A DNA stretch of 64,000 bases, taken from the NCBI RefSeq assembly GCF_004010195.1, contig NC_057755.1, forward strand, positions 149,042-213,041. Reading direction: 5' to 3'. The notes beneath the pieces are model-generated. The model made no database searches. It was not told the DNA's origin and worked only from the letters and a program-made list of their open reading frames with translations. Source of the stretch: Chiloscyllium plagiosum. Lineage: Eukaryota. Below, in pieces: positions 6,451 to 64,000 of this stretch (position 1 is the stretch's first letter; each line of letters opens with the position of its first letter). Position numbers and translations under genes: made by a program.

Positions 6451-6457
6451 AGTCTGA

Positions 6458-9330: not shown

Positions 9331-9331
9331 A

Positions 9332-15200: not shown

Positions 15201-16077
15201 CTGTCACATCCCTGACCAGAGCACCAGGGAGGCAACATACCATCCGGCAGTCCAGTTTTCGGCGACAGAAATGCCTATCTACTCCACTCACAATAGAATC
15301 CCCTATGATTATGGCCCTGCGAGTCTTGTTCCTGCCCTTCTGATCCAGGCAACTGCTGCCCTGCCCTGATGAGCCATCTCCCCCAACAGTATCCAAAATG
15401 GAATACCTGTTTTGAATGGAGATGACCGCAGGGGACACCTGCACTGCCTTCCTTCTCTTTTTCTGTCTTTTGGTCACCGGTTCACTGTCCCCATCAGCAA
15501 TTCTAACCTGTGGTGTGACCCACTTCACTCAACTTGCCCTCCACGACCTCCTCAACATTGCAGATGCTACACAGTCGGTGTATCCGCAGATCCAAAGCCG
15601 TCATGCGTCAAAGAAGAGCTGCATATGGAAACACGTCTTGCAATTGTAAAAATCAGGAACGTTAGACACGTTTAAAGGTCCCACATCAAGCAAGAGGCAC
15701 AGTCCACGGGCCTGAGGTCCCCTGCCATTGTAAGGTTAGCTTTATATGAACGAACTAAAACCAAACAATACACTTAAATATATGAAGAAGAAAGGTAAAG
15801 AAAAATTAAAGCCTTACCTAACTGAGTCTTTTTCTTCCGGTTAGAGGAGGGGGCGGGAGGGGGCACGTGCAATCTCTCGGGTTTAGCCACTGCCCAAATA
15901 TAAAGTAAGCCCTTGCCTTTCCAGCAGCCCTCGCTTCACCTTACCTTCTCTCCTCGCCGCTCTGTCAAAATGGAGGTCCGATCCCGAGGTAAGTGCCATT
16001 TTAAATGGGAAAGCTTACCATTCCCGGCAGCCCTCGCTTCAGTCCACCATGTCTCCTCGCCGCGGTGTCAAAATGGA
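12252..16077 (-). mobile_element. Near-full-length CR1 LINE (5' UTR, ORF1 esterase, ORF2 endonuclease-RT), inactivated
   Basis: ORF1 RAIIIGDSIVSGVD (SGNH esterase), endonuclease PTRERAILDLVL...SDHNSV, and RT WRIAHVVPLYKKG...RPVSLTS. Multiple stops and deletions. The 3' end runs into the gap. Confidence 0.93.
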
Positions 16078-16884
16078 CAGACGTTTATTGCAAATTAAAT
16101 GTTGATAAAATAGAATAAAGCAAACTAAGTACTTATAACGCAGTTTCAAAGGCAATGAACATTGAGTAAATGTTTAATTCTCATTAATCTCAAAAAATGC
16201 ATCAATGAAACAAAAGGACCCGACTGTTATATATTATATGAAACAGGACTCCGAGTGGTGTTCCAAACAAAACAACCCTTAAACAATATTCAGAATACAA
16301 TCCCTGTATCTAGCATTTGATTGAATAACTTGTGACTGCCACTTCTCAACTGGAACAACAGTAAATTTCTTCTTGGAGCTACCACACACCTGATTGACAA
16401 TAACACTACTTCCTGAGAACACACAGCATTCCAAGGCAATGTAATTTATTAAAACGCTCAATTCTTTCGGATGAGCATAGATCTATACATCCACTCAGTT
16501 CCAGGGTCTTACAGGAACTAACTGAAATGACAAAATTGATTGAAATGAAAGTAATTCTTCCTCATTTCAGGGTTTCGTCCTTAATCGCAAATTCCAGAAT
16601 TCTTCAAGAAATCTTTCATGTCCATTAATACCATGCTGTTGCAAACATCAAAATTAAACAAAGGTTCATCGTGCTAAAATCCAATCAGCCTGCAGCCAAA
16701 TCTCAAATCTCAATTTTAAAACAAATTGTTGCGATTACTGAAATAGCTTCATGTTAACCATTAACTTCAGATGCACAGAGAAGCCCGCTGCTTATTCACG
16801 AAAAAAAGAACCAAACTCAACCTAAATGATTACAAAACTTATATTTTTCCACTGATTCCTGGACTTAATTCCACCAACATTCTC

Positions 16885-26054: not shown

Positions 26055-26929
26055 TTATGTGACCAGTTGTTGCACCACATTCCTGAACTTCGCTCTGAAC
26101 TTGGGCAGAGTTGCTGCATAAACGAGTGTGTTCGTGCTGCAGCTTAAATCCTTTAGCATTTCTCCCGCCCAGGTAAACTGCAGTAGACGCCAGTTCCTCC
26201 AACGACGTCCTACTTTAACATTAAAGTATAAGATGTTTGCACCGTACACGACCCACAGGAGTATGAAACTGATGGATATTGTGAATAGGCAAATCACCGA
26301 CTTCCTCCGGGTCTCCATCGTTGCATCGTTGTGACTCTGTCCCTTCCTCTGACCCCTCAGGTTTTTGCGGACTTGATTGGCCACTAAAATGTACCTGACC
26401 GTCAGAGTGTTCATCAACAGAATTAACATGAATGGGATTAAAGGTGTTAAAATGATATCAAACCAGTTAAACCCCAGCCACCTGGGATCAGTAAAATACC
26501 TTGACTTTATATGGCAATACCACTGAACATCGTTAATTATCCGCCCAGGTTCATACCGAAAATAGAAGGGAATGTTTTTTGAACAGAGTAGAATACCAGT
26601 TGCAGCCAAAACCACAGCCAAAGCTTTCTCTGTCCAATATTTGGTCTTCACTTTCAAGCAGCAAATGGCCACAAAACGATCAAAGGAGAAAAGGACAGTG
26701 AACCAGACGGAACAGTCTGTGGCTGCACGGATCAGGACAAAAATAACACTGCACACAGGCACGACATTGAGGGAACACTTTGGGTAGTAAATGTCTCTTA
26801 ATCGCCACAGCATGATCTCAGTGAGAATGAACAGTAGATCCGAAGTTGCCATCGCTAACAGACAGCGCGTTGTGCACTTAGAGAGGCCGCACTTCCCCCG
26901 TGAGAGAATGAAAATCAGCAGGAGATTAA
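26055..26929 (-). CDS. GPR139/GPR142-like class A GPCR, coding exon 2 (end of TM1 to C-terminus), intact
   Basis: Acceptor ctttctttttcag|TT AAT (phase 1). The frame is open for 25 codons before ORF 26055-26852. Motifs: MATSDLL (TM2), PVC and SFDRFVAIC (TM3), WYC (ECL2), TPLIPFMLILLMN (TM5), SFILLW (TM6), TNTLVY (TM7) and a KFR helix 8. Confidence 0.92.
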
Positions 26930-27624
26930 CTGAAAAAGAAAGATGATAAAATGCACATCAGAAATTACTTGTCAAACGTTCTCTGCATCTGCCCAGAGAG
27001 CAATGGGCGATCTTCATATCTAACTGGGCAGGGAACTGACAGACGGGGAAGGAGCATAACTTATAAGGTGAAGGATAAGATGCTTGGGGTATTGGGCGAA
27101 AATGCTTTCTCCTGGAGAGTGGTGTCATTTCTGGTAATTCAGTTCTTGGGAGGGTTGTTAAGATTGGAAACCTCATAATCTTTAACAAGTATCTGGGATG
27201 AGACCAGATTTCATCCCGCCTGTATTGCCCAAGTTTGTTGGACTGATGGATCTCTTCTGAATATTCGGGTTCCACAATTTTAAAAATTATTTCTGGGAGG
27301 TAGGTTGGGAAGTGAAATATTTTCATATAATAATTAAAAGAGCTATGAATACTGAAGATATGAAACAGAAACAGAAAGACTGGTGAAACTTAACCGTTAT
27401 GGTAGCATCTGTGGAGAGAGAAACAATGTTAATGCACTCATTCTTCATCAGAACACCTTTTTCTTTACACTTATCACGGAATTGAGAACATAATCTCGGT
27501 TTTTCCTCGCACAAGGTACTATCATTGCAAACAAAGCACAGGGATTGTTTTCCAAACGGGAATTGAGATCATTGTGTTTCTACTATGGAACATTTATTCA
27601 ACTGCTCATAGCATACTGGGCATG

Positions 27625-30600
27625 GTTAGAGTAATCGAGATGTCGAGCATGGAAAGAGACCCATTGGTCCAAATAGTCCATACTGACCCGATATTTTATA
27701 ATATCTAATCCAGTTCGCCCCCATACCCCTCTAAACCCTTTTCCCTTATTTTATCAATCTTCAGCTTTTTAAATACTGTAATTGTACCAGTCTTCACCAT
27801 TTCGTGTATCTTTATATTCTATACATGCACCACAAATTGCATGAAAATTATTTTCCGTTAGGTACCTTTTTAATCTTTCTCCTCTCAACACAAACCTATG
27901 CGCTGTATCCAATGCACTGTACCCTATTCACTACCCCACACCAGGGAAAACACCTTGTCTATATACCCTATCTATGCCACTCATGATTATATAATCCTCT
28001 ATAAGTTCTCCCCTCAGCCTCCGATGCTCCAGTGAAAACAACCCCAGCCTATGCAATCTCTCACTATAATTCAAACTCTCCAACCCTGGCAACGTTCTCG
28101 TAAATCTTTTGTGAAACCTTTCATGTTTCACACGACATTCCTTTCAAAGTGAGACCAGAATTGCACATACTTCTTCCAAAAGTGGCCTAACAAATGTCCT
28201 GTACATCCGCAAAATGACCTGAAAACTCCTATAATCCATGATCTGACCAATAAAGGATCATATACCAAACACCTTCTTTACAATCCTAAGCCTCCACATT
28301 CAAGCAACTATGGAAGTGCACTCCAAGGTCTCTTTGTTTAGTAACAATCTCCAGCATCTTACTATTAATTGAACAGTTACTGCCCTCATTTGTCATTGGA
28401 AAATGCAGCACCTCACATTTAACTTAAGTACATCTCCACCTTCCACTCTTCAGTGCATTAGCTCATCTGATCTGCAGTAACCTTCTATACTGGTTACAAC
28501 ACTTCCAGTTTTGGTGACACTTGCAAACTTACTGATCATGCCTCCCATATTCACATCGCAATCATTTGAATAAATGAGGAAAAACTGTGTATCCAGCACC
28601 GATCCTTGTGGCACACCACTGGTCTGAGGCTTCCGGTCTGAAAAGCAACCCTCCACCACCACCATCTGCCTTTCTACATTCGCGGCAGTTCTGTGTAGAA
28701 ATAGCTAGCTCCCTCTATTACATGTGGTCTAACCTTGCAAACCAGTCTACCATGAGAAACCTTGTCAAACGCCTTACTGAAGTCCACAGAGATCACGTGC
28801 ACCATTCTGCCCTCCAGTTCATTGTTTCTTCAAAAATCTCATTCAAGTTCGTGAAGCGTGATTTCCTAAGAACAAAGCCATCTCGAAAATCTCTAATCAC
28901 TCCTTGCCTATTTAAACTGAGGATTCATATCAATCCTGTCCTTTAGGTATCCCGCCAACAACTTGCCCACCATCAATATCAGTCCCAGCGGTTTATAGTT
29001 CCTTGGCTGTTCCTTACCATCTTTCTTAATTAGTAGCACCACTTCAGCTAACCTCCAGTTTTCCAACACCTCACCTGTGACTATTGATTATCCAAGTATC
29101 TCAACAAGGGGCCAGAAATCACTTCCCTAGCTTCCCACAGAGTTGTCGGTTCACCAGACCAGGTCATGGGAATTTATCCACCTTTATGTGTTCTTTAATT
29201 TCCAGCACACCCTGCACTGGAATATGAACATTCTTCGATATGTTACCATCTATTTCCCCACATTCTATATCTTCCACGTCGTTCACCACAGTAAACACTG
29301 ATATAAAATACGCGTTTATTATCATCCCTATCTTCTGAATTGCCAGAAATAAGCTGCCTTTCTGATCTTTGAGAGGTCCTATTCTCTGCCTAGTTACACG
29401 TTTGTCCTTCGAATATTAATAAAATTTCCTTTGATTCTTCTTAACGCTATTTGGCAAAGCTATCTCATGCCCCCTTTCTGCCATCCTGGTTTTCTTCCTA
29501 CTCCTACTGCCTTTTTATTCTTCTGAGTATTCACTCGATATCTGCTGTCTACACCTGACGAATACTTCCTTCTTTTTCTTAAACAAACCAGAAAACTATC
29601 ACTCTTTATGCTGTTTCTGGACTCCCGTTATCTCATTTCTCAAGACTTCCCATTTTACAGCTGACCCTTTACCTAGGATCATCTGCCTCCAATAATCTTT
29701 TGAAAGGTCTTGCCATATAGCTATTCTCCAATTTACAATTTTAACTTTTCGAATCGGTCTTTCATTTTCTATTTCTATTTTAAATTAACCAAATTCAAGT
29801 CTCTGCCCCAAACTTCTCCCCCAACTACAGTCACTTGCCCTGCATTAATCCCAAGAGGAGGTCACGTTTTGCACATTCTGTAGTAGGTATTACCACATAC
29901 CAAATCAGACAATTTTGGGATACGCTCTAACAAATTCATCTCCGTTCTAAACCATTAATAATTTGGCAGTCCCAATCTATGTTTCGAAAACTAAAACCCC
30001 CTACCATTATCACACTATTAAACTTACAAATAACTGAGATCCCCTTACAAATTTGTTTCTCAATTTCCCACTGACTATTGAGGAGTCTGTACTACAATGC
30101 CAATAAGGTAATTAGCACTTTTGTAATTCTCAGTTCCTCCCCAATAGCTTCCCTGAATGTATTCCCCTCTCTAAGTACAGCTGTAATGTTAACCTTTATC
30201 AAAAAGCAACTCTCCCACTTCTCTGGGGCCCCGTTTCTTTCCTTTCGACATAATTTCTATCCTGCAAATTTAAGCTGCCAGTTATGTCCATTCCTGAGCC
30301 ACAATTGTTGTGCTATCCCAGCTCTATGTTCCTAACCACGCTCTCAGTTCATTTGCCTTCCCTGTCAGGCATCAAGGAAAGAAATCAATGCAATTTAATT
30401 TGTCAGTCCTGCATCATTCTCTGCTTTGTTTCTACCTCCCCTGACGATTGGGCTTGCTCCTTTTCTGAGCTGTACCAGTCTCAGACTGATCTCTTTCCAG
30501 TCTCAGACTGATCTCTTTCCTCACTATCTCCCTGGACACACACCCCCAATTCCGTGGCAACCCCCACTCCATCCTTACTAGTATAAATATTCCTAGGCGA

Positions 30601-32185
30601 TTGTCACAAATTTCCTTAATAGTAAATTATTTCTCTTCCAACTGAGGCGCAATCTGTGTGCCTCTTACAGGTCACGTCTACCACAGAAAAAGTTCCAATA
30701 ATGCAAAATGAGAGCCCTTGCCTCCTGCACCAGCCCCTCAGCCACGCTTTCATCTGCTCTATTCTCCGATTCCTGCACTCTCTGGATGATGACACTGAGA
30801 GTAGTCCTGATATTACTACCCTCAACGATCTCTTTTTACAATTCCTGCCTATCCTGTCATATTCTCACTGCAGAATTCATCCGTTTTCCTTTCTATGTCG
30901 TTAGTTCCAATGTACACAATGATATCCTGTTGGTCCCACTTCCCTTTGAAAATATTCTGTACCCACGTCAAGATTTGTTGATTCTGGCACCCGGAAGGCA
31001 ACAGGCGCTCTTGGCCGCAGAAAAGTCTGTCTGTGCTTCTGACAAGAGAGCCCCCTTAACAATTGATGGCTTTGAACCTTATGTAACCCTCATTACATTA
31101 GAGCCAGTCTTGGGACCAGAAACATGACTGCTTGTGCTACATTCTCCGAAGAGTCCACCCCACACTGCATTTTACAAAACATCATGCCTATTATAGATGG
31201 AGCCAGCCACAGGAGAATCCTGCACTACTTGTCTCCCTCTTCTACCTTTCCTGGAAGTACTCCGTCCTCTTGACTGTATCAGTTGGTTTTGTCTCTTCCT
31301 GTAGCTACTAGCCAGCAAACCCGTACCTCCTGGAAATTCCTCATTGCCTCGAACTGCTGCTCCACCCGGTTCATGCAATTGATAGGATTCGCAGTCAAAC
31401 ACATTTACTGTCGCCATAAACATCAGTAACATGGAAGCACTCCCTAATCTCCCCCATCCGACAGGAAGAGTACATTACTCTATTAAATGCCATCTTCGAA
31501 TCTTATTAATCGACAGGCTCAGAAAATACCACAGTCTTACTGCTCTAAAAGACACAGCTCCATGTTAACTTAGTCCATGAAGTATATATATATGTGTGTG
31601 TGTGTATTTAATAAAGAGATAGATCTCAATAAAACGTTTCATTAAAAAGAACTGACGCTACTGACAACGAAAAAAGTCAGCAATATTACACTGAAATTAA
31701 AAACATACTCTTGCCTGCTCCTGTGCTGTGAACTCTCCCACGCAGGTTCTTCTAAGGTCAGCTATGATTTTCGTTGTTTGTTAATTTTTCTTGGATGCAC
31801 TTCGATGCCTAGAAATGCATGAACTCAAACAGTAAAGGCAGTAGTTGTGCAGCTTCACTGATGTGTCAGACAGGAATATAGGGAGTGCTTCCATGTTACT
31901 GATGTTTATGGCTTTTTCTCTCTCGCTCACTCTTTCTCGAAACCTATCTCTCACTGGCCAAGTGGACTGCTATTTTGTCTCTGTTTCTCCTTTTCTAAAA
32001 TTGTGTTGCTTTGTACTTTCTTTTTTGCAAATTTCCAAAACAGTGCAACTGTTTATTAAACAATAATTACACTTGCAAGATTTTCTGGATGTCAGCTCTG
32101 ACACATAAAATACTGCAAAGAAAAAAGGAGCAGCTCTCACAGCCAGAACGTTTTCATGTCCTCCAATTCGGATTGCCTGAAAGAT
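27625..32185 (-). mobile_element. Near-full-length degraded CR1 LINE (ancestral intronic copy)
   Basis: RLGLFSLEHRRLRGELIE, SGVPQGSVL and ORF1 RVVISGLL...WLRGWCRRQG. The 5' end (GGAGCAGCTCTCACAGCCA) is shared with 37755 and 10050. Confidence 0.9.
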
Positions 32186-32699
32186 AACCGACCCCACTGA
32201 AATTCAATTTAACACCCAGGAATGTTCCAACGGTGGAAACGGAGAATACAGAAATAGGGCATGTAACCCATCAAGTGAACTCACTTTAACACTCCTCAGT
32301 CTTTCCATGATCCCATCAAAATTGAATGAAAGTTACGATACTGAAAGGGATCATTATTTCTGCATCAATTGGATAAACTAGCAACCTGCTCTGATCCCAC
32401 TTTCCAGCAACTGGAACACAGAGTTGAAGGTTTCTTCACGTCACTTGCTGACCGAATGCCCTTTAAACGAGTTATGGTTGGCCACCTCCAGCCACCATCA
32501 AAATTGGGCAGTGAATTCCAGTTGCACCATCACCTTCTGAATGAAATAGTCGACATCATTTCCTCGATAATCCTCACATCATTACCTAACACCATTCTTA
32601 TAAATCTATTACATAGTCTTCTCAGTGCAATTCTGTCCTCACTACTTACTGATGACCAGCACTGTGCATTGAACCGCATCCGTAATCCACCCAGTGTCT

Positions 32700-34595
32700 T
32701 CGGGTAAGTTAAAGTATTCTGTATCCGGTTCTCTTTTGTTTGTGTTTCATTCGGTAATCTGCAAATAAATTCTGTTTTAATTAAAACCGAGGAATAATGA
32801 CCAGTTCATTCACTTGTGGAATATCCACAGTGCACCTGCTCAAAATAAGTCGAAAGATAAGGGTCTTCGCGACCACCTTGACATGTTTTGAAAGGCTCTT
32901 GCCTGGCCCATAATAATTGTATGTTGGTTCCCGATTGGAAAGGAAATCAAAGATATGGGGAAAAGGCAGGAGAATGGAATTAAAAAAATAAATCCATCAC
33001 GATCAAATGTCAGAGCTCATTCGATAGGTTGAACGGTTTAATTCTGCTCCAACATTCTATTGAGGTATGATGCAAAATGTAACAATATTTAAATATGGAT
33101 GCAAACATCTTCAGCAGGGAAATAATGCATCCGTGGTTCAAACATGGACGGAAGAATTGGAATTCTGCACTTCTTTCAATATTCCCTGTTTTGTTTCTTC
33201 ATTAGACGTAGGACTTGGAACTGAAGTAACAGTTCAGTTATCAGGATGCTAGAGGTACAGTTACTGATAGTTTGATATTTCCCAGGTTGCTGAAATACGC
33301 AATTGCGAGCAATCTGTGTGCTATAGAGTTCATCTGTCCGTTTTCATCAGGAGAGTGAGTTTCATGATCAGACATAGACAGAACCACACACAGAGGGATA
33401 TAGAAACACACCCACACCCTAACACGTAAATACATATACACACAGAAACACATCCAATCACAGAAATAGAGTCAAAGTAAGATTTAGGAACACACTGACA
33501 AAATAAAAACACATACACACACACACATATACGCAGAAACAAATCCACACACTCTCACACACAAATACACAAACATGCAGAAGCACACTCTCACATAGAA
33601 ATAAAGTGAGATACTGGAACATCCTGATAAACAAAAACACACTCCACGCACACAAGCAACTGACACTCATGCACACACGCATAATAATACAGTCAAATTG
33701 AAATGTGGGAACACACATACACAAAGACAGCAGAAGGAATTTTCACACACTCACAACACACAGGAGCACAATCAGAGCGCAGAAGGGGTCAAACTTACGT
33801 ACACACGTGCGTGTGCTCACAGGCAGCCCCCCAAAAAAACAGACTTATTGAGACATAAAGGAAAACACCTATGCACGAACATACGTCCACAAACGCAGAA
33901 ATGCAGTCATACTGAGAGAGAGGAACAAATCTACACACACACACATACACACCCGCACACATACGTGCATGCACACACAAAACACACACAACCACACAGA
34001 TACAGACACAGACAGACACCTACCCCCACACAAACACCTCCCCCATACACATAAATACAGACATACTGATAGAGAAAGGAACACACCCATATATACCGAA
34101 TGCACACATATCCATGCACAAAGAAATGCAGTCATACTGAGATGTAGGACCACGCCTCCACACAGACATATAATCATAACCAGACCTCCACACACATATA
34201 TAAACCAACTCAAATTAAGAGACAGTGCACACCCACCTGCAAGAACTGACATAAACCTCTTGCACACACACACACATTCAAACACAGTTACTGAGCCGCA
34301 ACCTCAATGATATATAGACAGAGAGTGACACTCAGAAACAAACAGACACACACCGACAGAGAGGCCTAGAGAGATCCTACTGGGAGCACAGAAAGATCTT
34401 GACAAATGGACAGACAACCAACATAGTCTGAACAACACATTCACCTGCTTAAAGAGCACTGCCAGGTACAACCACATCACGCACTCCCACAATAATAAAA
34501 TGAAACTCAGAAACACACATACATGGAGCCACAGAATGTTCATGATATGCTGACAGTAACACCCACATACAACACACGTCCCCACCATCACATAG
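32700..34595. repeat. Second copy of the GPCR 3' flank (LTR end, CR1 tail, CA-rich tract) without an exon
   Basis: Colinear similarity to 23345-24800. Confidence 0.85.
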
Positions 34596-34604
34596 TCAGT
34601 GATT

Positions 34605-37600
34605 TTCTGTTCCAAATGCAGCACCTCGCATTTATCTAAATTAAACTCCATCTGCAACTCCTCGCCCATTGGCCTGTCTGATAAAGATCCGATTTTACAC
34701 TGAGGCAACTTTCTTCTCTCTCTCCTGCACTTCAAATTTTGGTGGTATTTGGAAACTTACTAACTATACCTTCCATATTCACCTCGAAATCATTCATATA
34801 ATTGATTAAAAAAAAACTGTAATGCAGCACCAATCCTTGTGGTACATCATTGGTCATGGGCCTTCGGTTTGAAAAACAACCATCCACTACCACTCCCTGT
34901 CTTCGACTTTTGAGTCAGTTCTGTATCCAATTAGCTAGTTCGCCTCTATTCCAGTTGGTCTAACTTTGCTAACTAGTCTACCGTGGGGAACCTTGTCAAA
35001 CTCCTCACTAAACTCCATTTAGATCACGTCCATTACTCTGCCCTCATCAACCCTGTTAATTACTACTTCAAAAATCTCAATCTTTAGACATGATTTCCCA
35101 CGTGCAAAGCCATATTGACAATTACTAACGAGCCCTCACCTATCTAAATACAGGGTACATATAAATCCTGTCGCTCAGGATCTCCCTCCAACAACGTACC
35201 TACCAACAATGCCAGGATCACTTGCGTAAAGTTTGCTGGGGTTTCGTTACCACCTTTCTTAAATAGTGGCTCATATGAAGCATCCCCCAGTCTTCTGACC
35301 CCTCTCCCGTGATGATCGTTTTTTTCAAGTATTTCAACAAGAGTCCAGCAACAACTTCCCCAGCTTCCCAAAGATCAGATCCTGGGGATATATCTAACTT
35401 TATGCATTATTTGACTTCCAACACATCCTGCTCTGTAACATGGACATTTTTCAAGATGTCACCATGTATTTCCCCACATTACATATTTTCCAGGTCTTTC
35501 TCCACAGTAAACAATGATACACAATACTCGTTTAGTGTCTCGTCGCCTCCACCCACACTTTAAGCAGTTGCACACATCGGCTGCCATGCTGACCTTTCAG
35601 GAGTCTTCTTCTATCCTTAGATACCCTTTCGTCCTCAATGTATTTATGATTTCCCTCTGGATTCTGCATAACCATATTTGCCAAAGCTATCTTATGACCT
35701 CTTTTTGTACTCCTGATTTCCCTCTGAAGTACCGTCCGATTGTTTTTATATTATGCTCAGGATTCACGCAATCTCTGCGTCTGTACTTGATATCTGCTTC
35801 CTTCTTTTTCTGAACCAAGTTCTGTATCAATCAGCCTTGCTTTACGCCTGAACAGGAGCATAAACATTCTAGAGTCTCATTATCCCATTTCTGAACGCTT
35901 CGAATTTTCCAGCTGCACATTTACCTGAAAACATCCACCCCGAATCAACCTTTGAAAAATCTTGCCTCGTCGCCATCCTCCAATTTAGAACTTTGACTTT
36001 TAAATATGATCTGTCTTTTTCCATTTCTATTTTAAACTAACGGGTATTGAAGTCTCTGCCCCAAAATGCTCCCCTAACGGGCCCTCAATCACCTGCCTTG
36101 CCTTATTTCCTAAAAGTAGTTCAGGTATTTCAGGTTCTCTCGTGGTAAATTCACATACTGAAATAGAAATGTTTGATATGCACACTTAACAAATTCAACT
36201 ACATCCCAACGCTTAATAATGGGGCAGTCCCAGTCTATATTTGGAAAATTAACACCCCCTACCATTACCACACTACCATTTTTCCAAACAACTGAGATCA
36301 CCTTACAAATTTGTTTCCCAATTTCCCACTGATGAGTGTGGAATCTTTTGGACCATCCCAATACGGTAATCAGTCCTTTTTTCATTCTCAGTACCACCCC
36401 AAATACCTTCCCCGCATATTTTCCCAAAAATACCCACCCCGAAGTATAGCTGTAATGTTAATCCTTATGAACAAGACTACTCCCACTCTTATCTTGGCCC
36501 CTTTCCTTCCTTCCTCCAGCATTTCTATCCTTCGACTTTTCGCTGCCAGTCCTGTCCATCCCTGAACTACATCTGTGCAATTGCTGTGATATCCCAGTCC
36601 GATGCTCCTAACCATATCCCCAGATCACCTGCCTTCCTTGTTAGGCGTCTTGTATAGAAATAAATGCAACTTAATTTGTCAGTCCTGCCTCATTCTCTGC
36701 TTTGAACTTGCCTGTCCAGACCATTGGACTTACTCCTTTTTTCCCAACTGTATCAGTCTCAGACTGATTTCTTTCCTCACTATCACTTTAGCTACACCAC
36801 CCAACCGTCTTCGCCCACCGTATCCGTACCCCCCAGTCCAACCTCATTCGCTTCAATATTCCTGAAAATCTCGAGCTATTCTCCCTGGCAGTCAATTAGT
36901 TTTCTTCCAGTTCATGTGCAAATTTGTTCTCGTTATACAGGCCACTTCTACTCGAAGAAATATTGCAGTGATCCAAAAAAAGTGAACCCTTCAGCCCCGC
37001 ACCAGCTGCTCAGCCACGCATTCATCTGCTCTGTCTTCCTATTCCGACATTCACTAGCTCGTGGCCCTGAGAGTGATCCAGAGTTTACAACACGCAAGGG
37101 CGTTATTTCTAATTCCTGTCCAATCTCTCGCATTCGCCCTTAAGAATTTCATCCTTTTTCCTTCCAATGTCGTTAGTTCCAACATACACAATGTCCTCCT
37201 GCTGCTCCTACTCCCCTTGGACAATATTCTGTACCCTGTCTGAGATATCCTTGATCCTGGCACTAGCGAGGCAACAGACGCTCTTAGCTTCAGAAAAAAT
37301 CTGTCCATGCCTGTCATGAGTGACTCCCCTATCACAACTGATCGTTGATACGTGACGTGACCCGCGTTACATTGGAACCAGTCTTGGTATCAGAAACGTG
37401 GCTGTTCCTGCTCTCTTCCTCTAAAGGTCCATCACCAGCTACATTTTCCAAATCAACATGCCTGTTTCAAATGGAGATAGCTTCAGGAGACTTCTGCACT
37501 ACTATCGACCTCGCCTGCCTTTCCTGAAGATAACACCACCTACCTGGTTGTGTCTGTTTTTGTTCTCTCTTCCTATAGCTGCCATCCATAACTCCCACAG

Positions 37601-37810
37601 CTCCTGAGAATTCCTCATTGTGTATAAATGCTGCTCCAACCGATCCAGGTGATCTGATATGATTTTCAAAACAATACAACAGCTCATAAAACAAGAATTA
37701 TTCTTCCAGGGTTTTGTGGAAGTCAGCACTGACACCAACAATATCTCAAAAAAGGAACAGCTCTCACAGCCACAATCTTTTCCCGCCCTCCATTTCGGAT
37801 TACCAAGAAT
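34605..37810 (-). mobile_element. CR1 LINE, paralog of the intronic copy at 28400-32185
   Basis: MEFNLDKCEVLH, GVNFPNIDW and esterase IGESL motifs, with the same 5' end. Confidence 0.88.
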
Positions 37811-40800
37811 CGTCAGGTCACTACATTACAAAGCACATGATTTATTGCATTTGCGAAGATGTAATTGGTTGACGAATAATGCTAACAGAGATGAGAAATG
37901 TTCATGTCATTATTAAAGGTGCAAATCGCGATCAGAGTCCTCTCTGTGCCGATAAACTGAGGATATGATAACTCACTGAATCCCTCATAGTGTGTTTTGG
38001 AAAGAGAACAATTCCTTGTCAAGTTTAGCAATGCTCTAATGTGGCGGACATTCAGTCAGCAAATAATGCAAAGTGCAAGTAGGGAGATGTGACTTTTTTT
38101 TTGCATTCTCTGCATTATCTGACTCAAAGAGTTTTGGAATATGCCTGTTGATATTCTATGAATGCAATACACAATACAGAAGAAAACAGTGAATTCACTA
38201 CTGCAACTACGGAATGTGGCAGCTCCAATCCAATGCATAATAAAATATGACATGATTAAAAAAAATCAGGTCTCTCTGACTCTCTATTGTTTTATAATCA
38301 TGTCATGGACAATTAGCATTTAAATTGATAATCCGAATATTCTGCAGTCCATAGGTAATATACGATTTCAAAATGCTTCTTTTCAAAAATCTTTACATTA
38401 TAATAAGATAACTAAACAAAGTTAGCAATTTCACCCTAATGAATTGGCAAATTATTATGCTCTAACCTTAGTTAACATTATTCCTCCCCACGTAAAATTG
38501 CTTTATGCATTATGCAAATTTTGAAGTGACAAAAACTTTTTCAGTGAAAAACTGGAAGGTAGCGCTCTTCCATTCAATTTTCCGCTCTCCAAATTTCCAG
38601 TGTTGGAAATGGACAACACTGAAAAAGGCCATTTAACCTACCAAGTGAATACATTTCAACTCTCCTCAGTCTTTCTGCAAAACCAGAGGAATGCACGAAA
38701 TTTGTGGCACTGAAAGAAGTCATTCATATCTGCATCAACTAAATCAACCTGCTCAGATCCCATTTTTCAGCATCTGGTCGACAGCACTGAGGTTTTCTGC
38801 ACTTCATGTGCAGATCTAAGTTTCCCTTATATGAGTTAAGGTTAGTCACCTCAAGCCACCATCAAAACTGGGCAGTGAATTCCAGTCAAACTATCATCTT
38901 CCGAATGAAATGGTAGACATTATGTCCTTAATAATCCTCCCACCAATGTTTCTCACTCTCTGTCTCCTTGTTAATTGGTTCTCCGTTGAGGGAGTCATGT
39001 ATTCAATCAACACCCTGATTAATTTGTAATCCCAGTCTTTTTCCCAACTGTATCAGTCTCAGACTGATTTCTTTCCTCACTATCACTTTAGCTACACCAC
39101 CCAACCGTCTTCGCCCACCGTATCCGTACCCCCCAGTCCAACCTCATTCGCTTCAATATTCCTGAAAATCTCGAGCTATTCTCCCTGGCAGTCAATTAGT
39201 TTTCTTCCAGTTCATGTGCAAATTTGTTCTCGTTATACAGGCCACTTCTACTCCAAGAAATATTGCAGTGATCCAAAAAAAGTGAACCCTTCAGCCCCGC
39301 ACCAGCTGCTCAGCCACGCATTCATCTGCTCTATCCTCCTATTCCGACATTTACTAGCTCGTGGCGCTGAGAGTGATCCAGAGTTTACGACACGCAAGGG
39401 CGTTATTTCTAATTCCTGTCAAATCTCTCGCATTCGCCCTTAAGAATTTCATCCTTTTTCCCTCCAATGTCGTTAGTTCCAACATACACAATGTCCTCCT
39501 GCTGATCCTACTCCCCTTGGACAATATTCTGCACCCTGTCTGAGATATCCTTGATCCTGGCACTAGCGAGGCAACAGACGCTCTTAGCTTCAGAAAAAAA
39601 TCTATCCATGCCTGTAATGAGTGAATCCCCGATCACAACTGATCGTTGATACGTGACTTGACCCGCGTTACATTGGAGCCAGTCTTGGTACCAGAAACGT
39701 GGCTGTTCCTGCTCTCTTCCTCTAAAGGTCCATCACCAGCTACATTTTCCAAATCAACATGCCTTTTTCAAATGGAGATAGCTTCAGGAGACTTCTGCAC
39801 TACTATCGACCTCGCCTGCCTTTCCTGAAGGTAAAATCACCTACCTGGTTGTGTCTGTTTTTGTTCTCTCTTCCTATAGCTGCTATCCATAACACCCACA
39901 GCTCCTGAGAATTCCTCATTGTGTATAAATGCTGCCCCAACCGATCCAGGTGATCTGATATGATTTTCAAAACAATACAGCAGCTCATAAAACAAGAATT
40001 ATTCTTCCAGGGTTTTGTGGAAGTCAGCACTGACACCAACAATATCTCAAAAAAGGAACAGCTCTCACAGCCACAATCTTTTCCCGCCCTCCATTTCGGA
40101 TTACCAAGAATCGTCAGGTCACTACATTATAAAGCACATGATTTGTTGCACTTGAGAAGATGTACTTGGTTGACGAATAATGCTAACAGAGATGAGAAAT
40201 GTTCATGTCATTATTAAAGGTGCAAATCGCGATCAGAGTCCTCTCTGTGACGATAAACCGAGGATATGTTAACTCACTGAATCCCTCATAGTGTGTTTTG
40301 GAAAGAGGACAATTCCTTGTCAAGTTTAGCAATGCTCTAATGTGGCTGACATTCAGTCAGCAAATAATGCAATGTGCAAGTAGGGAGATGTGACTTTTTT
40401 TTTGCATTCTCTGCATTATCTGACTCAAAGAGTTTTGGAATTTGCCTGTTGATATTCTATGAATGCAATACACAATACAGAAGAAAACAGTGAATTCACT
40501 ACTGCAACTACGGAATGTGGCAGCTCCAATCCAATGCATAATAAAATATGACATGATTAAAAAAAATCAGGTCTCTCTGACTCTCTATTGTTTTATAATC
40601 ATGTCATGGACAATTAGCATTTAAATTGATAATCCGAATATTCTGCAGTCCATAGGTAATATACGATTTCAAAATGCTTCTTTTCAAAAATCTTTACATT
40701 ATAATAAGATAACTAAACAAAGTTAGCAATTTCACCCTAATGAATTGGCAAATTATTATGCTCTAACCTTAGTTAACATTATTCCTCCCCACGTAAAATT

Positions 40801-41338
40801 GCTTTATGCATTATGCAAATTTTGAAGTGACAAAAACTTTTTCAGTGAAAAACTGGAAGGTAGCGCTCTTCCATTCAATTTTCCGCTCTCCAAATTTCCA
40901 GTGTTGGAAATGGACAACACTGAAAAAGGCCATTTAACCTACCAAGTGAATACATTTCAACTCTCCTCAGTCTTTCTGCAAAACCAGAGGAATGCACGAA
41001 ATTTGTGGCACTGAAAGAAGTCATTCATATCTGCATCAACTAAATCAACCTGCTCAGATCCCATTTTTCAGCATCTGGTCGACAGCACTGAGGTTTTCTG
41101 CACTTCATGTGCAGATCTAAGTTTCCCTTATATGAGTTAAGGTTAGTCACCTCAAGCCACCATCAAAACTGGGCAGTGAATTCCAGTCAAACTATCATCT
41201 TCCGAATGAAATGGTAGACATTATGTCCTTAATAATCCTCCCACCAATGTTTCTCACTCTCTGTCTCCTTGTTAATTGGTTCTCCGTTGAGGGAGTCATG
41301 TATTCAATCAACACCCTGATTAATTTGTAATCCCAGTC
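36738..41338. repeat. Recent direct tandem duplication, period about 2300 bp
   Basis: TTTTTCCCAACTGTATCAG at 36738 and 39038, and GTAATCCCAGTC ending at 39037 and 41338. Duplicated ORF pairs appear in the ORF track. Confidence 0.97.
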
Positions 41339-43082
41339 ACGTCAAATCTCATGCGCCCCTGTATAGGGAAGATGACACGACCCTATGCATCTTTCCTCAA
41401 TACTGCAGTAATTTCCCCACACTAACACCATTCTGGTAAATCTCTGTTGCACTCTCCACAGAACAATTCTGTCCTCACTGCTCGGTGATGACCAGTACTG
41501 TGCACAAAACTGCATGTATGTGAGCCACCCTGTGTCTTGTATCATTTCAGTGTTGCAGGTTTGGCAGGGAGTGAGGGATTTTGTATTGTATTGGCTGTGC
41601 TGTAGAGTATAAGAGTAGTAACTTTGGGATGGGTAATATGGAATTACAACTCATTGCGGATGTCTGATATCAGGATCTGCGATATGTAATTAATCTGCAT
41701 GGATGTAGTTCGGCCCAATTTGTTTGAAGTGTGGCTCCGTTTGTCTGTTCCTCAGGAGTCAGTCGAAGCCTTTAATCGCCTCAATTCTATTCTGATGCCA
41801 GCTGATTAATTACAGAACAAGCCAGACCCGAGACAGAAATCCAGATTGATGAGTGATAACCTTATTTACATTAATTAGCAAACTGATCTCTTGCTGAATC
41901 ACAAACACATAATGCTGAAAACATTCTTTTTCACACCAAAACAGACGTTTATTGCAAAAGAAATTACAATAATTTAGAATAAATCAAATTACTTACTTAT
42001 AACGTAGACTCAAACAGAACGAATACAAAGTAAATGTATAATTCTTATTAACTTCAAAACAATGCATCAATGAAACAAAATGACACGACTTTTATATATT
42101 CAACAAAACAGACTCCTAATGCAGTTCAAAACAAAACAACCCTCATATAATAATCATATTAAAATCCCTGTTTCTATCATTTGGTTAAATGACTTGTGAC
42201 TACGACTTCTAGACTGGGACTGCATTTGGTTTCTTCCTGGAGCTACCACATATATGAGTGTCAATGTACGTGGAATTAAACATTATCTTCAGAGCTTATG
42301 TCTCGTCACAACACTTCTGTCTGGGACCAATACAGCACTTTCATTCCAAGACAATGTATTTTAATCAGACTCTCATCTCATTCACGTGAGCACAGAGCTA
42401 TGCATCCACTCATTTCCAGGTTCTTACAGGATTGAAAATAAATTACAAAAAAAAAATGATTGAAGTGAAAGTAAAGATTTCTCATTTATGGGTTTCTTCC
42501 TTAATCACAAATACCGGAACTAGCCAACAAATCATTCAGACTCCATTAATGCCATGCTGGATTGCAAGCATGAAAACTATAAAAAGGTTCACTGGTTGAC
42601 CAAGCCATTCAGCCCGTGGACAAATCTCAAACGTAACTATTAAAACGAATTGCTGTGAAAACAGAAATGCACTCACGTTGACGATTTGTTTCAAATGCAG
42701 TCAAGCCCACTGCTTATTCACTCAAAAAGCAGAACCAAACGAAAATTAAATATTATTGCAGTCTCTACATAAAAATACCACCGCTTATATTTTAACAAAG
42801 AAACTCCTTTTGTTAATTCCACCGAAATTCCCCGTCGTCCCGATTGAAATGGAGATTTCTGAAAGGTTCCCAGAAGTGGTGAATAATCCCCCAGGCAGTT
42901 CCTGTGGAATCTGCGGTGGTGGGGATTCCACGAGGTGTCTGTAACCTGAGATTAAATTTTTGATCGTCTGCCACTGTGTGATTTACAGGCAAAACATGTT
43001 CATGTACCATTGTTAGTGGCAGAGTGAACGCGCAGATAAGTCTCACGCAGATTCACACAAACTCAATGCTGCAGGCTCTTAC

Positions 43083-43149
43083 CAGGAATTGTTGCAAATG
43101 GAAGAATCGTGTAAAATATCGTCCACACATGATAAAATGAAAACGTCAT
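43083..43149 (-). CDS. GPCR coding exon 1 (MTFSFYHVWTIFYTILPFATIP-G)
   Basis: ATG in AAAATG context, 22 codons plus 1 nt, then donor CCTG|GTAAG. Phase 1 matches the exon-2 acceptor and restores TM1 ...TIP-V-NLL. Confidence 0.82.
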
Positions 43150-43223
43150 TTTCTGCCCGAATCTCTTTGCGCAGGCAATCTGTCTGCACTCAATACCGAG
43201 GTGATGCAATCACAAGGCCTTTC

Positions 43224-43230
43224 ATTTATA
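43224..43230 (-). promoter_or_regulatory. Candidate TATA box of the GPCR gene
   Basis: TATAAAT on the minus strand about 75 bp upstream of the ATG at 43149. Confidence 0.6.
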
Positions 43231-44669: not shown

Positions 44670-45960
44670 TAGTGAACGCTTGCTGACTGAGCGAATCTAC
44701 CAGAACCATCAGTCCTGACTAAGCAGAATGCAGGGTGGTGTATTGTCTCAACAGTGCCTCGGGTCGAGAACGTGACAGAACAACATCAGGTAATATTGGG
44801 GTGTGGGGTTTTCTGGGGTGGGACAGCAGCAGGAGCGGGAACGTGTGGAAAGTGAAGAACCCATGGTCCGAGTGCATATTTACACCGACAAATTCTGGGA
44901 TCGAAATCACTCTCCAGAGGACAGCATCATGTAATTAATCATTCGCTATTTGCAAATGCATCGCTTTTCACAGGAGTCTTCTTCAGTGTCAGCTATTTGG
45001 CATCTCACTATCCCTGAAATTCATCTTTCTTTTAAATTTCAGACAGGGCTACCTGATTGGATCAGGTTCGCAGCCCTAATTTGGGAACTCATACCCTATG
45101 ATATCCAGCTGGCTAATCCCAGGGCAATAACAGGCAGCTATGAATCTTCATCAGTAAAATGCAGAATATCGGGCAAGAAATTGAAAAGCTGATCCCCCAT
45201 TACGCTGAGTACACATTAGGTCCATGAACATGTGGCTGAAAGCATTGGTTCCAGGAAGAAGGGTTTTAGATGTCTCGATGTTTGGCGAGGTTTCTCGGCC
45301 TGGTGTGATCTGAATACATTGGAAACATGGGTTTTGATTTAATTGGATGGCGAATGATACTCTTTTGGGGAAACATACTCTCGCTATTGTGAAATATTTG
45401 TTCAATCTTGTCAGAGTTTTGGGAACTTGAAAAAAAAGCACAGTTAGCAGGGAAATGGCCACTTGAAGGAGGAAATCTGTGAGTGAAAGAGAAAGGCCAC
45501 AAAAAGACATTCTGGATCGATGAAGACGTTCTCTTTCAGAATTCCAATCTACAGGTCAAACCCTCCTCTTACATGCCTCACAAATTCAGGGACAGAGTTC
45601 TTTCTGATGTCTTACTTTCTCATTTTTAGGATATCCCAAGATTGTATCCAATAGGTCATACACATCCTGTCAACGTCCCACATTTTTTTGTTATTTGTGA
45701 CTATGCTTGCTTCACGTGGACAGAAATAGATCATTTTAAGGACTAACCTATTCCATCTCACAAGTTTGAATTGATGTGCAACAAGTTAATTTACTTTCTC
45801 TAAAACGTACAGACACAATGCAGTAGTATGAATTTACAATATTAATACAGAGGGAAGATTGATTTTAAAATGCTTGAATTGTATATTAAAGTGGAGAATG
45901 AAGAATTGGACTCTAAAATTCGGATGCTGAATCTAAATAATGAAGTAATGGATTGAGGAA
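44670..45960 (+). mobile_element. Ancient CR1 remnant (ORF1 esterase region to ORF2 start); GPCR-unit upstream block
   Basis: TGGTTCCAGGAAGAAGGGTTTTAGA (WCR.EGFRF-like) and MLELYIKVENEELDSKIRMLNLN. Paralogous to 2215-3520 and 16885-19350. Confidence 0.65.
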
Positions 45961-46019
45961 CCTTAGAGAAGAGGTTCTCGTTATATTGATATCTGCTAAA
46001 AAGGAAGCAATTCCTGAAT

Positions 46020-47640
46020 GGTTTGCAGCACTGATTCAGCTGCCTCCAGGTCAACAATGTTACAGGAAAGGCGATGGGAGCAGCCCTGCCTGACTATCGA
46101 TTAATGAAGAAGCTTTCTGTTTCCCACCCATTGATTGAGGCTGCACGAATAATGCTGGTGGACAGCAGTCGGATTCATTGGTGGAATCCCTCCACAAAGC
46201 CTAACTTTGAGAGAATATCCTTCAAGAATGTGTGAGAGATCCTGTCAAGGACATCCTTATGCAGGCTGATGAGGCGGGTTTCTGACTCCCCTGTCCTGCA
46301 TGGAGGCGATTCTGTCCTTAAGAATTGTGAGGCTGCCCGTACAGATCAGATCTGTTCGGGGTGAATCACTGACCCCAAAGCAGAACTGAGCCGGTTGGTG
46401 ATGACCTTATTCAAGAAATTTTAATTTACATTGAGCAATGAAGTGGGTCGTCAGTCGTCCTCTCCCCCTTCTGATTGTAGGTGAGGGGGATGACACCTGT
46501 CCTCATGGGTTCACACTGACTACCTGTCAGAAGCCTACTGTTGTCCACTTCAAGCAGGTCCTGGCCAAGCAGGTCTGACACAGTTTAAACAACTAAGTTG
46601 GTAAGCTGTCACTTCCTGGTGTCTTACTCGTTTTTAAGGACTCGAGGGTCTTGGTCAGCACATCCAGAAATAACGGTTGCAGCAACCTCCCCCATGTGCT
46701 TTCGTCTAAGACCTACATGACAGGGAGCAATGACTGGGAGGTTGCACTCTCTGTGGGCTTCGTGCCATGCAGTCTGACATAAAAGGATTTGCTGATCCTC
46801 AGGATTCAGGCTCAGATAACGCTACAGATCCATCTTCTCCCTTCAGGCTCTGAGCACATAGCTCTCTCTGTGCAACCATTCAAAGACCAAACGTGACCAC
46901 GCCTCCTCCTGCTCCACAATGTGAACCCTGGACTTAGAAAGCATCTTGGAGGCGTCTGAGATAAAGGGTGCGGGTTCCTGGCTGTCCACTTCCTGAATAC
47001 CTTCCATGACATCAACCTCTATCGTCTACATGATATGAAGATTCTGCAAACGTTTCTGGAGTTTTTACATTCTCCCCGTTTCTCTCTCACCTTCAGAAGA
47101 CTTTCGACAGAAAGGTCCTCCAGATGTTCCGCTTGACGGTTTCCCATAAGTCAAAGGGTGACTCAAACTGGGGCTTCACGTTTCTCCAGCCGATGGTAAC
47201 CCTGTTGAATCCTCCATATTTTCTGGGATCAGCAGTTTCACATTCAGTTTCCACGTTCCATTGTAGAGCAGTGGTCAGTGAAGAACACCAGCTTGGCATT
47301 GTTGAATTTGTCCGAAACCAATCCCAGCCTCTCTAGTCTCACTTGACGTGTGAATCACTCTAGTCCTGGTGAACCTCGCTCGTAAAATTCTTCCTGAATT
47401 TTGTTTTAAGAAGGCTGCATTGGCAAGCTCCTGAGTCCATTTGATTCGAATCACCAGGCCGGGCACATCCTTCTTTTCCCTTGGCTAATCTTCATCATCA
47501 ACTTCTGCTCCTGTGGCGGCGAACTTGGAGGAATATGGCATCAATAGTATCTGCAGCAGCAGCATTGCGGACCTGGAACAGGAATCTCGGCATCGGTAGT
47601 CACTATGGTAGACCTTGGTTCATTATCCAAAATTTTCTTG
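46020..47640 (-). mobile_element. Tx1/L1-clade LINE ORF2 fragment (endonuclease end to RT)
   Basis: WRNVKPQFESPFDLWETVKRNI and downstream RT-like segments. A longer paralog of 19350-20150. Confidence 0.8.
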
Positions 47641-52477: not shown

Positions 52478-53210
52478 TATGGGATTTGAAGGCATGCATT
52501 ATACCTTGGAGAGAAAGAAAAAGCTTTTGAGGTGGCAAGACTTTACAGACACCTGTTAAGTGAATATTTCGCATTATCAGAGTATACTGGAAAATTAGAG
52601 GTATGTTACATCTGGCTGCTATGTTAAAATTTAACCAAGAAGTGTTCATGATGCCCAAGAATTACAAACCCCAATCGATTTTGAATGTTACGGTTTTGAC
52701 AACATTGAACCAATGACAAGATGGATGCCTGGGGTATAAACAAGCCGGAATTTTGGACAGTTAGCCAGAGAGAGCGACCATCCGCCATCATCAGAGTATC
52801 TGGTTGCAAAATACTCTCTATCAAAAGTTCCTTTTCATATGAAGCAGCTTTGCCTCAAAAGACCGAAGAAGATGCATGGAATTTTTCAGCTGAAAGAAGA
52901 TAGACACAGACGGCTGCTGTCTGACTTCGAAGATTAGGTTGACACAATTTAAAGAGGGACTTTTATTTGATCAAAATATTGTCACAGATTTGAAGGTAAT
53001 TCACAGGCTTTTAACAGAAAGGAGGCTTAGACTTGTATATAGTTGTGTAGAATTCACTTTTAGAGGTAAATGATAAAATTGATATTTTTCTTTAATTCGT
53101 GGAATTTGGGACATTCTCTGTCACTCATACATTAACTGCTTATGAGGCGAGGTGACCTTTTTCTCTGTGTTGGCTTAATTAGCAGAAGGGTTCACCACTG
53201 TATCATAAAA
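52478..53210 (+). mobile_element. Probable solo LTR related to 47865-49106
   Basis: CCAATGA...GATGCCTGGGGTATAAA and the terminal GCGAGGTGA...TTAGCAGAAGGGTT...TCATAA are shared with the other copy. Confidence 0.6.
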
Positions 53211-54829
53211 CTCTCCATTCCATCGTCTCTATTCCCTTGTATTGAACTCTCTTCAAGTTACTCTCTGGTTAATACTCTCCGTGCTTTTGGTATTAAATCG
53301 TTTCCGTTTCCCCATAGTTAACACTTTCCTCACTCAATTACAAACCATCTTGTTCCAATAAAACTCAATTTAAGCATTTCTCTGTGAGTTTGCATTCAAT
53401 CCCATCCCGTTATGCTTTATTTTACCCTCTCGCTATTACTTTCTCTTTAAACTTTCTATTATTATTGCCTATTTAATCCGATGACTATCATTCTGCATTG
53501 AATTCTCTCCCTGTCACAATCTTTAGTCCCTTCTATAACTCTCTCTATCTTCCCGTGATGCTTTTCAATTTTTGTTTTCCTTTCCAGAATGTGTGTTCCC
53601 CACACAATAACCAGAGATCGAGTGTCCCTGCTAAATCATTTATCATAACTGCTAACACGTGATCGCCGCTGCTGTGTGTTACCGCCTCTCTGGCTGGCGC
53701 TGGAATTGAAAATGTTCCCAAAGCACCGGAGGGGCTCAGCAGCAAACCACACGTCAGACAACATGTTGCTGATCGGGATGAGGCAGGCATGACTTCAACA
53801 TATACTATTATTTACATAATAAAAGCAACTGCTCTGATATACAACAAAAATTATGTGCAAAGTGGAACAGTCACAATACAAAGTAATATTCATGGAAATA
53901 AACTGAAACAGTTCCAATTCACAACTTCTATATACAAAATGAAACAGCTCCAGTACATTTCAATATTTACATCTCGATATGAACCGGTCCACTCTGCAAT
54001 ATTAAAATATGAACACGAACAGTTCGAATGCACAGCTGTTATACACAATATGAACCATTTTATAACAGCTTCAAGACTGATGTATAAACGTAAATGCTTC
54101 AGAAACACAAAATTATTTAAATATAAACATGTGCAACTGCAACACACATCAATGATTATATATAATAGAAAATACAAAATTGTTTGTTCAGAGATAAACC
54201 AATACGTATATACAAGCATGAACAGCTCAGAAACCAAATAGGAATTGAATACGAAGATGAATGCTTTTCAGACACAACTACATTTATCTTTACAAATGAG
54301 TAAATATCTTAAATATATTTACATATAAATTGGAACAGCTCAAATCATACAAAAAGTAGTCGATCAGCACAGAAAAAGTTACACTGCACAGAGTAAGAGA
54401 TATTACACACCAACCTGCAAGAACTGGCAGACACCTTTTATACATATACACAAAACCCCTTAAAAACAGTTACTGAACCATAACCACAATGAGGTATAGA
54501 CAGGGAACAACACTCAGAAACAAACAGAGACAAAACCATAGAGGAACACAGAGAAATCTGCTGGGGGTAGGAAGATATTGACACACGGACAAACAGCCAA
54601 GCACAGTCTGAACAACACACTCACCTGCTTAAACAAGAGCACAGACAGACAGAGCCACACCTTCCATTCCTCAATAATACACCAACAGTCAGAGATTCTC
54701 CCACATACAGTCAAGGAACCACCGTGTCATGCTGACGTCAACACACACACACAATTCGAGACACAGACAGAGAGTGACGTCGCCACAAAAAGCAATAAAA
54801 CATGCCTGAAGAACATGCCTGAATAAAAC

Positions 54830-54865
54830 ATTCCTGAAGAAGGGCCTGTGCCCGAAACGTCGAAT
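54830..54865 (+). ncRNA. Minimal type I hammerhead ribozyme motif (Penelope-associated)
   Basis: ATTC-CTGAAGA-A-GGGC(CTGT)GCCC-GAAA-C-GTC-GAAT. Stem I is ATTC/GAAT, the core CUGANGA and GAAA is intact, stem II is 4 bp, ACGT is palindromic in place of stem III, and the cleavage triplet is GUC. Confidence 0.8.
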
Positions 54866-55472: not shown

Positions 55473-55600
55473 TGTAGATTCGTTGTATCAGTTAAGATTC
55501 TGTGAATAAACTGCTGTCTGCGTCTAATCATAGTTGCCAGTGTGAGTCTCTCCTTCCGAAAGAACACGCAAAGACGGGACCCCGCGGGTCCGTCTTAACA
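55473..55600 (+). mobile_element. 128-bp TG...CA segment resembling an LTR R-U5 end
   Basis: Starts TGTAGA, has AATAAA at 55505, a GC-rich hairpin at 55571-55596, and ends TTAACA. Confidence 0.5.
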
Positions 55601-63971: not shown

Positions 63972-64000
63972 AATCTTTCAGTCTCCCTTTTAACCACGCT

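What the first reader, a model, noticed from the sequence alone, without database searches (positions are those of the whole stretch)
26055..43230. The only complete receptor appears to be a chimera of two complementarily deleted units
Seen: the unit carrying intact exon 2 follows the normal intron order only to about 32700 (equivalent to 41540). It then jumps into a new 3' flank (equivalent to 23345), so its own exon 1 is gone. The next unit jumps at about 34600 from CA-rich flank into the intronic CR1 (equivalent to 28400), so its exon 2 is gone, but it keeps exon 1 and the TATA box. The donor at 43082 and acceptor at 26930 are both phase 1 and join into an open 313-aa 7TM protein across a roughly 16-kb composite intron. 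Inference: promoter/exon-1 swapping between paralogs could rescue or rewire receptors.
Basis: partly seen in the sequence, partly recalled or inferred. Interest (0 to 1): 0.75.

Follow-up and report, generated by a model that had tools for sequence, protein, structure and literature searches.

The report
Shark receptor gene stitched from two
In a shark receptor cluster full of broken copies, the front end of one gene whose own second exon is dead now sits directly upstream of the intact second exon of a different gene, so the two would likely splice into one complete receptor, although no transcript was found and the copies have drifted as if unselected.

Summary
The layout is real. Exon 1 (43149-43083) and exon 2 (26929-26055) join in phase into an open 313-aa 7TM protein, and no other exon 1 lies between them. 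Trees reject the two halves being sisters (AU p=1.6e-77), so they come from two paralogous lineages, C and B.

The two breaks differ in age. The join at about 32700 is shared by two sister copies about 95% identical, so it is not a misassembly. The break at 34599 is private to this copy: the sisters keep 2,479 more bases there, holding C's own exon 2, long dead (two frameshifts, truncated). The order is therefore: C's exon 2 dies, B loses its 5' end, the block is duplicated, and this copy loses the dead exon. The relative order of the first two steps is unknown.

Function is unproven. No RNA read lay on exon 2, exon 2 diverged between copies at the intron rate (9 synonymous, 21 nonsynonymous), and one sister version carries a stop. 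Half-genes are common here (8 of 46 exon 2s open in 1.13 Mb). This is a Lepore- or SIGLEC14/5-like fusion. The scan noted this receptor family before, but no note returned described this chimera.

The parts
43225..43230 (-). TATAAA box of unit C, at the family-conserved position
43083..43149 (-). Exon 1 coding part (ATG, 22 codons plus 1 nt; N-terminus and first half of TM1), followed by the GT donor at 43082
34600..43082 (-). Intron of unit C (C lineage; kin at C46:5.32-5.34 Mb, C46:1.05-1.10 Mb, C9:86.10 Mb), ending inside an old shared LINE remnant
36738..41338 (.). 2.3-kb tandem repeat, 98.3% identical; junction found only in this copy; recent duplication or a haplotype join in the assembly
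34598..34600 (-). Junction J2: 2,479-bp deletion relative to sister copy C99513, removing C's lower intron, acceptor and dead exon 2; one unmatched base, no microhomology
32700..34598 (-). 3' flank of unit C (CA-rich), now inside the composite intron
32696..32707 (-). Junction J1: C's 3' flank joined to B's intron at a non-homologous point about 1.5 kb below the donor-equivalent; a few bases fit either side; shared by the two sister copies
26930..32699 (-). Intron of unit B (B lineage; kin at C46:0.76 Mb, C21:59.5 Mb), ending in a pyrimidine tract and AG
26055..26929 (-). Intact exon 2 of unit B (290 codons plus stop), class A GPCR of the shark 'GPR139-like' expansion

Best explanation
Two different members of a tandem shark receptor family are joined at 32700, likely by a deletion that removed the downstream gene's promoter and exon 1, so the upstream gene's intact promoter and exon 1 would splice across the 16-kb composite intron to the downstream gene's intact exon 2 and are predicted to give one 313-aa receptor. 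Shown: the layout; that B and C are separate lineages; that C's own exon 2 died long ago; that J1 predates the roughly 95% segmental duplication; that J2 is confined to this copy. Inferred: that J1 was a deletion, by end joining at a few matching bases; that the truncated dead exon was skipped; that J2 removed the competing acceptor in this copy; that the product is made. The effect would be a promoter swap plus a 22-residue N-terminus on B's receptor body. The confidence given is for the whole statement including expression; the history alone I put at about 0.85.
For: In-phase open join, 7 hydrophobic segments, no nearer exon 1. J1 is continuous in C46:246 kb and C99513 at 94%. B+C monophyly is rejected, p-AU 1.6e-77. 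The far-upstream region rejects B's kin (p=2.6e-10; identity 0.76-0.78 to C's kin against 0.64-0.66 to B's kin). C's pseudo-exon departs from conserved columns at 30 of 225 sites against 84 of 1369 in six open paralogs (p=0.0004), the same as C's intron (p=0.80); B's exon 2 departs at 11 of 229, below B's intron (p=0.004). So B's exon 2 was constrained over most of its stem while C's was dead. A dead orphan exon 2 would last about 0.012 substitutions/site, a chance near 0.09-0.10 if J1 fell uniformly on the 0.13 stem; an unselected exon 1 would keep ATG, frame, GT and TATA with chance 0.08-0.17 over 0.14-0.10 substitutions/site (rough models). TATA, ATG, 67-nt length and GT are intact in 3 of 3 copies. 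Other orphan exon 2s in the cluster are broken: 0 of 17 open, after leaving out the B copy and one distant-subfamily gene whose exon 1 my queries may have missed.
Against: No RNA read lay on exon 2 in run X21 (about 2% of the run read) and run X22 laid nothing; exon 1 was not in the laid stretch. Between this copy and the C46 sister, exon 2 differs at 30 of 873 sites and the intron at 202 of 5728 (p=1.0); 9 S and 21 N against a neutral expectation of 7.1 and 21.2. Polarised, this copy's own branch has 3 S and 7 N; P(N>=21) is 0.016-0.078 under the family's omega of 0.55-0.66. A fourth version, C53601, has a stop codon in exon 2; 1 lesion among 41 variable sites has P=0.08-0.13 under neutrality. 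The orphan versus paired contrast is not significant (0 of 17 against 5 of 26, p=0.14), and 8 of those 17 have an assembly gap within 12 kb upstream. C's exon 1 departs at 5 of 54 conserved sites, which does not separate selection from drift. 16 of 32 exon 1s in the cluster pass my intactness filter although only 8 of 46 exon 2s are open. The sisters keep the dead exon's proximal AG acceptor. J1 could not be dated.
Confidence: 0.5

Rival explanations
1. Same history, no function. C was already a pseudogene, J1 orphaned B's exon 2 shortly before the block was duplicated, and the exon is open only because too little time has passed. The in-phase join is automatic, since exon 1 is 67 nt with a phase-1 donor across the family.
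For: Neutral-rate divergence of exon 2 in every copy lineage (12 S, 29 N in all). A stop in C53601 and several changes to or from Trp at conserved sites in the C46 sister. 18 of 18 exon 1s examined are 67 nt, phase 1, so phase agreement carries no information. 38 of 46 exon 2s in the cluster are broken. No RNA.
Against: Needs J1 to fall in about the last tenth of B's stem and an unselected exon 1 and TATA to survive C's long dead period. Needs three versions to stay open where seen.
Confidence: 0.37
2. No promoter swap. Exon 1 is B's own, and a C-derived block (intron, exon 2, 3' flank) was copied into B's intron by a one-ended recombination event, homologous near 41540 and non-homologous at 32700.
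For: The promoter, exon 1 and first 1.5 kb of intron (43900-41600) cannot be assigned: grouping with B's kin is not rejected, p-AU 0.19 and 0.11. The backbone there is star-like.
Against: Far upstream (46800-44690) B's kin are rejected, p=2.6e-10, and the sequence is collinear with a C relative up to 50178. The best aligned tree of the proximal part also puts it with C's kin, weakly (SH-aLRT 80). A second exchange would be required.
Confidence: 0.07
3. One gene with an ancient internal tandem duplication of its 3' part; B never had an exon 1 of its own.
For: It would give the same junction and layout.
Against: It predicts B and C as sisters; rejected at p-AU 1.6e-77, each grouping with different paralogs at 100/100.
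Confidence: 0.03
4. Assembly artefact at one or both junctions.
For: The region shows overlap-type false joins in the sister copy and a private 98% repeat. No listed contig from other individuals bridges J2. The best record at J1 (run X6, 1 mismatch) reaches 32728, under the tool's 31-letter rule.
Against: J1 is in three copies that differ by 4-6%. J2 has no homology at its ends. A false J2 would only restore the sisters' layout, which is still chimeric.
Confidence: 0.03

Closest known systems
SIGLEC14-SIGLEC5 deletion fusion (PMC11018521, passages read; PMC4042635, search listing only)
   Same: A deletion between neighbouring paralogs puts one gene's body under the other's promoter.
   Different: It is an expressed polymorphic allele with a reciprocal duplication. 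Here the breakpoint is non-homologous, a 3' flank (and in the sisters a dead exon) stays inside a composite intron, and expression is untested.
Lepore and anti-Lepore globin fusions (PMC4041002, abstract and outline; PMC6526914, passages)
   Same: 5'/3' hybrids of tandem paralogs; a coding region is revived by acquiring a paralog's promoter; some fusions are pseudogenes (sirenian Hba-T2/Hbq-ps).
   Different: Those arise by unequal crossing-over or conversion at aligned positions and keep normal gene length. J1 joins flank to intron, and the donor gene's own exon 2 was already dead.
Shark 'probable G-protein coupled receptor 139' models in NCBI/UniRef
   Same: Same class A family: 1249 hits among 3244 candidates, the 120 listed all from cartilaginous fishes, best 74-75% identity.
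   Different: No listed protein is above 75%, so no annotated model of this gene or its sisters was returned. Three Chiloscyllium models read (P0001, P0002, P0004) start in intron-like sequence rather than with a family exon 1; B has no in-frame ATG there.

Membership tests
Chimeric gene from two tandem paralogs (Lepore or SIGLEC14/5 type) | 5' and 3' parts descend from different paralogs | tested here: met
   the proximal promoter and exon 1 alone are unresolved
Chimeric gene from two tandem paralogs (Lepore or SIGLEC14/5 type) | Open reading frame and intact splice signals across the join | tested here: met
Chimeric gene from two tandem paralogs (Lepore or SIGLEC14/5 type) | A hybrid transcript is made | tested here: inconclusive
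Chimeric gene from two tandem paralogs (Lepore or SIGLEC14/5 type) | Purifying selection after the fusion | tested here: inconclusive
   constraint on B's stem but neutral-like since the duplication; J1 undated
Lepore-type fusion in the strict sense (homologous unequal crossover) | Breakpoint at aligned, homologous positions of the two genes | tested here: not met
   J1 joins 3' flank to upper intron
Class A GPCR | 7tm_1 match above cut-off and seven hydrophobic segments | tested here: met
Shark GPR139-like expanded family | Similarity to family members and the 67-nt, phase-1 two-exon plan | tested here: met
GPR139 orthologue | Orthology to vertebrate GPR139 | not tested
   no tree with true GPR139 was built; exon 2 had no hit among solved structures at E<=0.01

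The most novel reading that the evidence does not exclude
A staged exon-1 rescue. After its own exon 2 died, C's promoter and exon 1 adopted a neighbour's exon 2 across a composite intron, skipping a dead exon, and kept that receptor under selection for most of its history; this copy then lost the competing acceptor. Because every family member has the same 67-nt phase-1 exon 1, promoters and receptor bodies would be interchangeable modules across a very large shark receptor family, reshuffled by ordinary deletions.
Probability: 0.25. Interest if true: 0.55.

Novelty: new member of a known kind. Interest (0 to 1): 0.3.

Why it matters
If expressed, it is a clean case of a receptor body changing promoter through a non-homologous deletion, with earlier states preserved in sister copies (with and without the dead exon). 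That makes competition between the two acceptors directly testable. It also shows that gene counts in this family cannot be taken from exon-2 ORFs alone. If not expressed, it is ordinary debris of a birth-and-death cluster.

Tried and rejected
RNA: no RNA holder was listed for exon 2. X21 put no reads on exon 2 and X22 laid nothing, so this is no test. The laid stretch stopped at 36700, so the splice junction itself could not appear.

In organism B two contigs align to 34598 and run on for about 375-409 unlike letters, which fits the undeleted J2 state, but those letters were not shown.

PolyA hexamers were uninformative: 4 of 11 open paralogs have none within 3.2 kb of the stop. Promoter conservation gave no contrast with intron (9% against 10-11%).

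Two-row clade tests and the B-kin tests were mis-specified (near-copies were left outside the clade) and are not used; they were redone. One constrained test found a better tree than the quick free search, so its p=0.82 only means 'not rejected'. A grouping with P46_3650 was not supported after realignment.

Rows dropped: one search kept 22 of 32 units (at least 45% filled) and one search kept 14 of those 22 for speed. The first script versions of the join were off by one base and gave false stops; corrected. The intactness filter missed one open exon 2 and was replaced.

No hit among solved structures. Earlier-findings look-ups by place and by sequence returned nothing.

Nine paper searches listed nothing on this family's expansion or on chimeras in it, judged from titles and abstract starts. 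PMC11979771 has 0 mentions of GPR139 in its main text. No supplements were read, and the library lacks most subscription papers.

Full report
Setting. The window is G000:C46:149042-213041 of a 3.56-Gb genome. Exon 2 belongs to a class A GPCR family whose 120 listed relatives are all from cartilaginous fishes, mostly named 'probable G-protein coupled receptor 139'. The genome search scored 135 matches of 7681 candidates, a lower bound. I call the upstream unit C (exon 1 at 43149) and the downstream unit B (exon 2 at 26929).

Observation. The self-alignment reproduces the jumps. Exon 1 has 67 coding bases and a GT donor at 43082; the acceptor AG ends at 26930; the join reads 313 aa without a stop, with seven hydrophobic peaks, the first crossing the splice. 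No other exon 1 lies between. Against an intact paralog the span reads C intron, 3' flank, B intron, exon 2. Phase agreement is uninformative, because 18 of 18 exon 1s examined are 67 nt and phase 1.

Sister copies. The block of about 80 kb recurs at about 95% identity: inverted at C46:229.5-290 kb and direct at 297-350 kb, the latter with a gap where the C-B part should be. Contig C99513 begins at the window position where that copy resumes, so it likely fills the gap. Small contigs C53601, C9385, C70337 and C12747 hold further pieces. J1 (about 32700) is continuous in both sisters, so it is real and older than the duplication. At J2 (34599) C99513 carries 2,479 more bases and the C46 sister carries the matching sequence. 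These hold C's lower intron, an intact AG and a pseudo-exon 2 with 1- and 5-base deletions and a truncation of about 1 kb, all shared by the sisters. Contigs of organism B also leave the window at 34598. J2 is therefore the latest event, and it removed an exon that was already dead.

Are B and C different genes? On 5,005 shared columns B groups with two C21 paralogs and C with two C46 paralogs, each at 100/100; holding B and C together costs 93.5 log units, p-AU 1.6e-77 (14 of 22 rows). This excludes an internal duplication. Whether exon 1 is C's needed more work. The proximal 2.3 kb is star-like and does not reject B's kin (p=0.19), but the region 46800-44690 does (p=2.6e-10) and is collinear with a C relative up to 50178. 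A deletion between C and B is the simplest reading. Transposition of a 5'-truncated B behind C cannot be told from it.

Timing and selection. C's pseudo-exon has lost conserved bases at the intron rate (30 of 225; open paralogs 84 of 1369), so it was neutral over most of C's branch. B's exon 2 kept them (11 of 229 against 38 of 314 in its intron). B's exon 2 was thus selected over most of its stem, either with its own exon 1 (late J1) or with C's (early J1). Rough survival models favour the second: about 0.1 for an orphan to reach the duplication intact, and 0.08-0.17 for an unselected exon 1 with TATA. Against this, after the duplication exon 2 diverged as fast as the intron (30 of 873 against 202 of 5728), with 9 S and 21 N; this copy's own branch has 3 S and 7 N; and C53601 has a stop. 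The family's omega is high anyway (0.51-0.66 among 11 open paralogs; 0.70-0.87 for one young ordinary pair), which limits power.

Base rate. In 1.13 Mb of C46, 8 of 46 exon-2 features are open and there are 32 exon-1 features. Leaving out B's two copies, 5 of 26 with an upstream exon 1 are open and 1 of 18 without; that one is a distant-subfamily gene, and without it the count is 0 of 17, p=0.14. Other non-homologous joins occur: two units near 1.01 and 1.11 Mb jump from mid-intron to an exon-1 remnant, and the window's own unit near 5-17 kb lacks exon 1. Such breaks are routine here. What is unusual is that this one leaves a complete frame.

Expression. No RNA holder was listed, and the one RNA run that laid reads put none on exon 2. 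This is no test.

Comparison. It works like the SIGLEC14-SIGLEC5 deletion fusion (PMC11018521, passages) and the globin fusions in which a coding region is revived by a paralog's promoter (PMC4041002, abstract; PMC6526914, passages), but it fails the strict Lepore test of a homologous breakpoint. My nine paper searches listed nothing on chimeras in this family. Earlier notes of this scan describe the family's size and a possible sensory role; I did not test these claims.

Verdict. The structure and the two-lineage origin are established (about 0.85-0.9). A working chimeric receptor is about even odds, by my judgement from the figures above. New member of a known kind; interest 0.3.

Noticed in passing
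window 44690-46800 and its paralogous upstream regions: Two deeply diverged upstream types (about 65% against 76%). The unit at C46:5.55 Mb shares the type of B's kin (support 100) although its intron rejects that grouping (p=2.4e-7): a likely older exchange of upstream regions between paralogs.
   Followed up: partly
G000:C46:229535-267393: The sister copy shows abutting overlaps and a piece (245406-245702) 100% identical to C99513, which suggests false duplications or mixed copies in the assembly.
   Followed up: partly
G000:C46:1006586-1028214 and 1107346-1128504: Two broken units with an exon 1, part of an intron, then a second exon-1 remnant and intron: another non-homologous join between units.
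   Followed up: no
window 4998-16832 and 58790-64000: Two further broken units: one lacks exon 1 by an internal deletion; the other keeps only the 3' part of exon 2 and has an intact exon 1 just beyond the window (C46:213640).
   Followed up: partly
window 53064-57873: A second recent tandem repeat of about 2.5 kb, 95-98% identical.
   Followed up: no
proteins P0001, P0002, P0004: Database models of this family appear to start at an in-frame ATG in intron-like sequence rather than at a family exon 1, so N-termini in public annotation may be wrong.
   Followed up: no
window 1302-2192: A 296-codon open stretch of a LINE reverse-transcriptase remnant (weak RVT_1 hit, E=0.0012, below cut-off); related remnants lie in the family's shared intron.
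   Followed up: no
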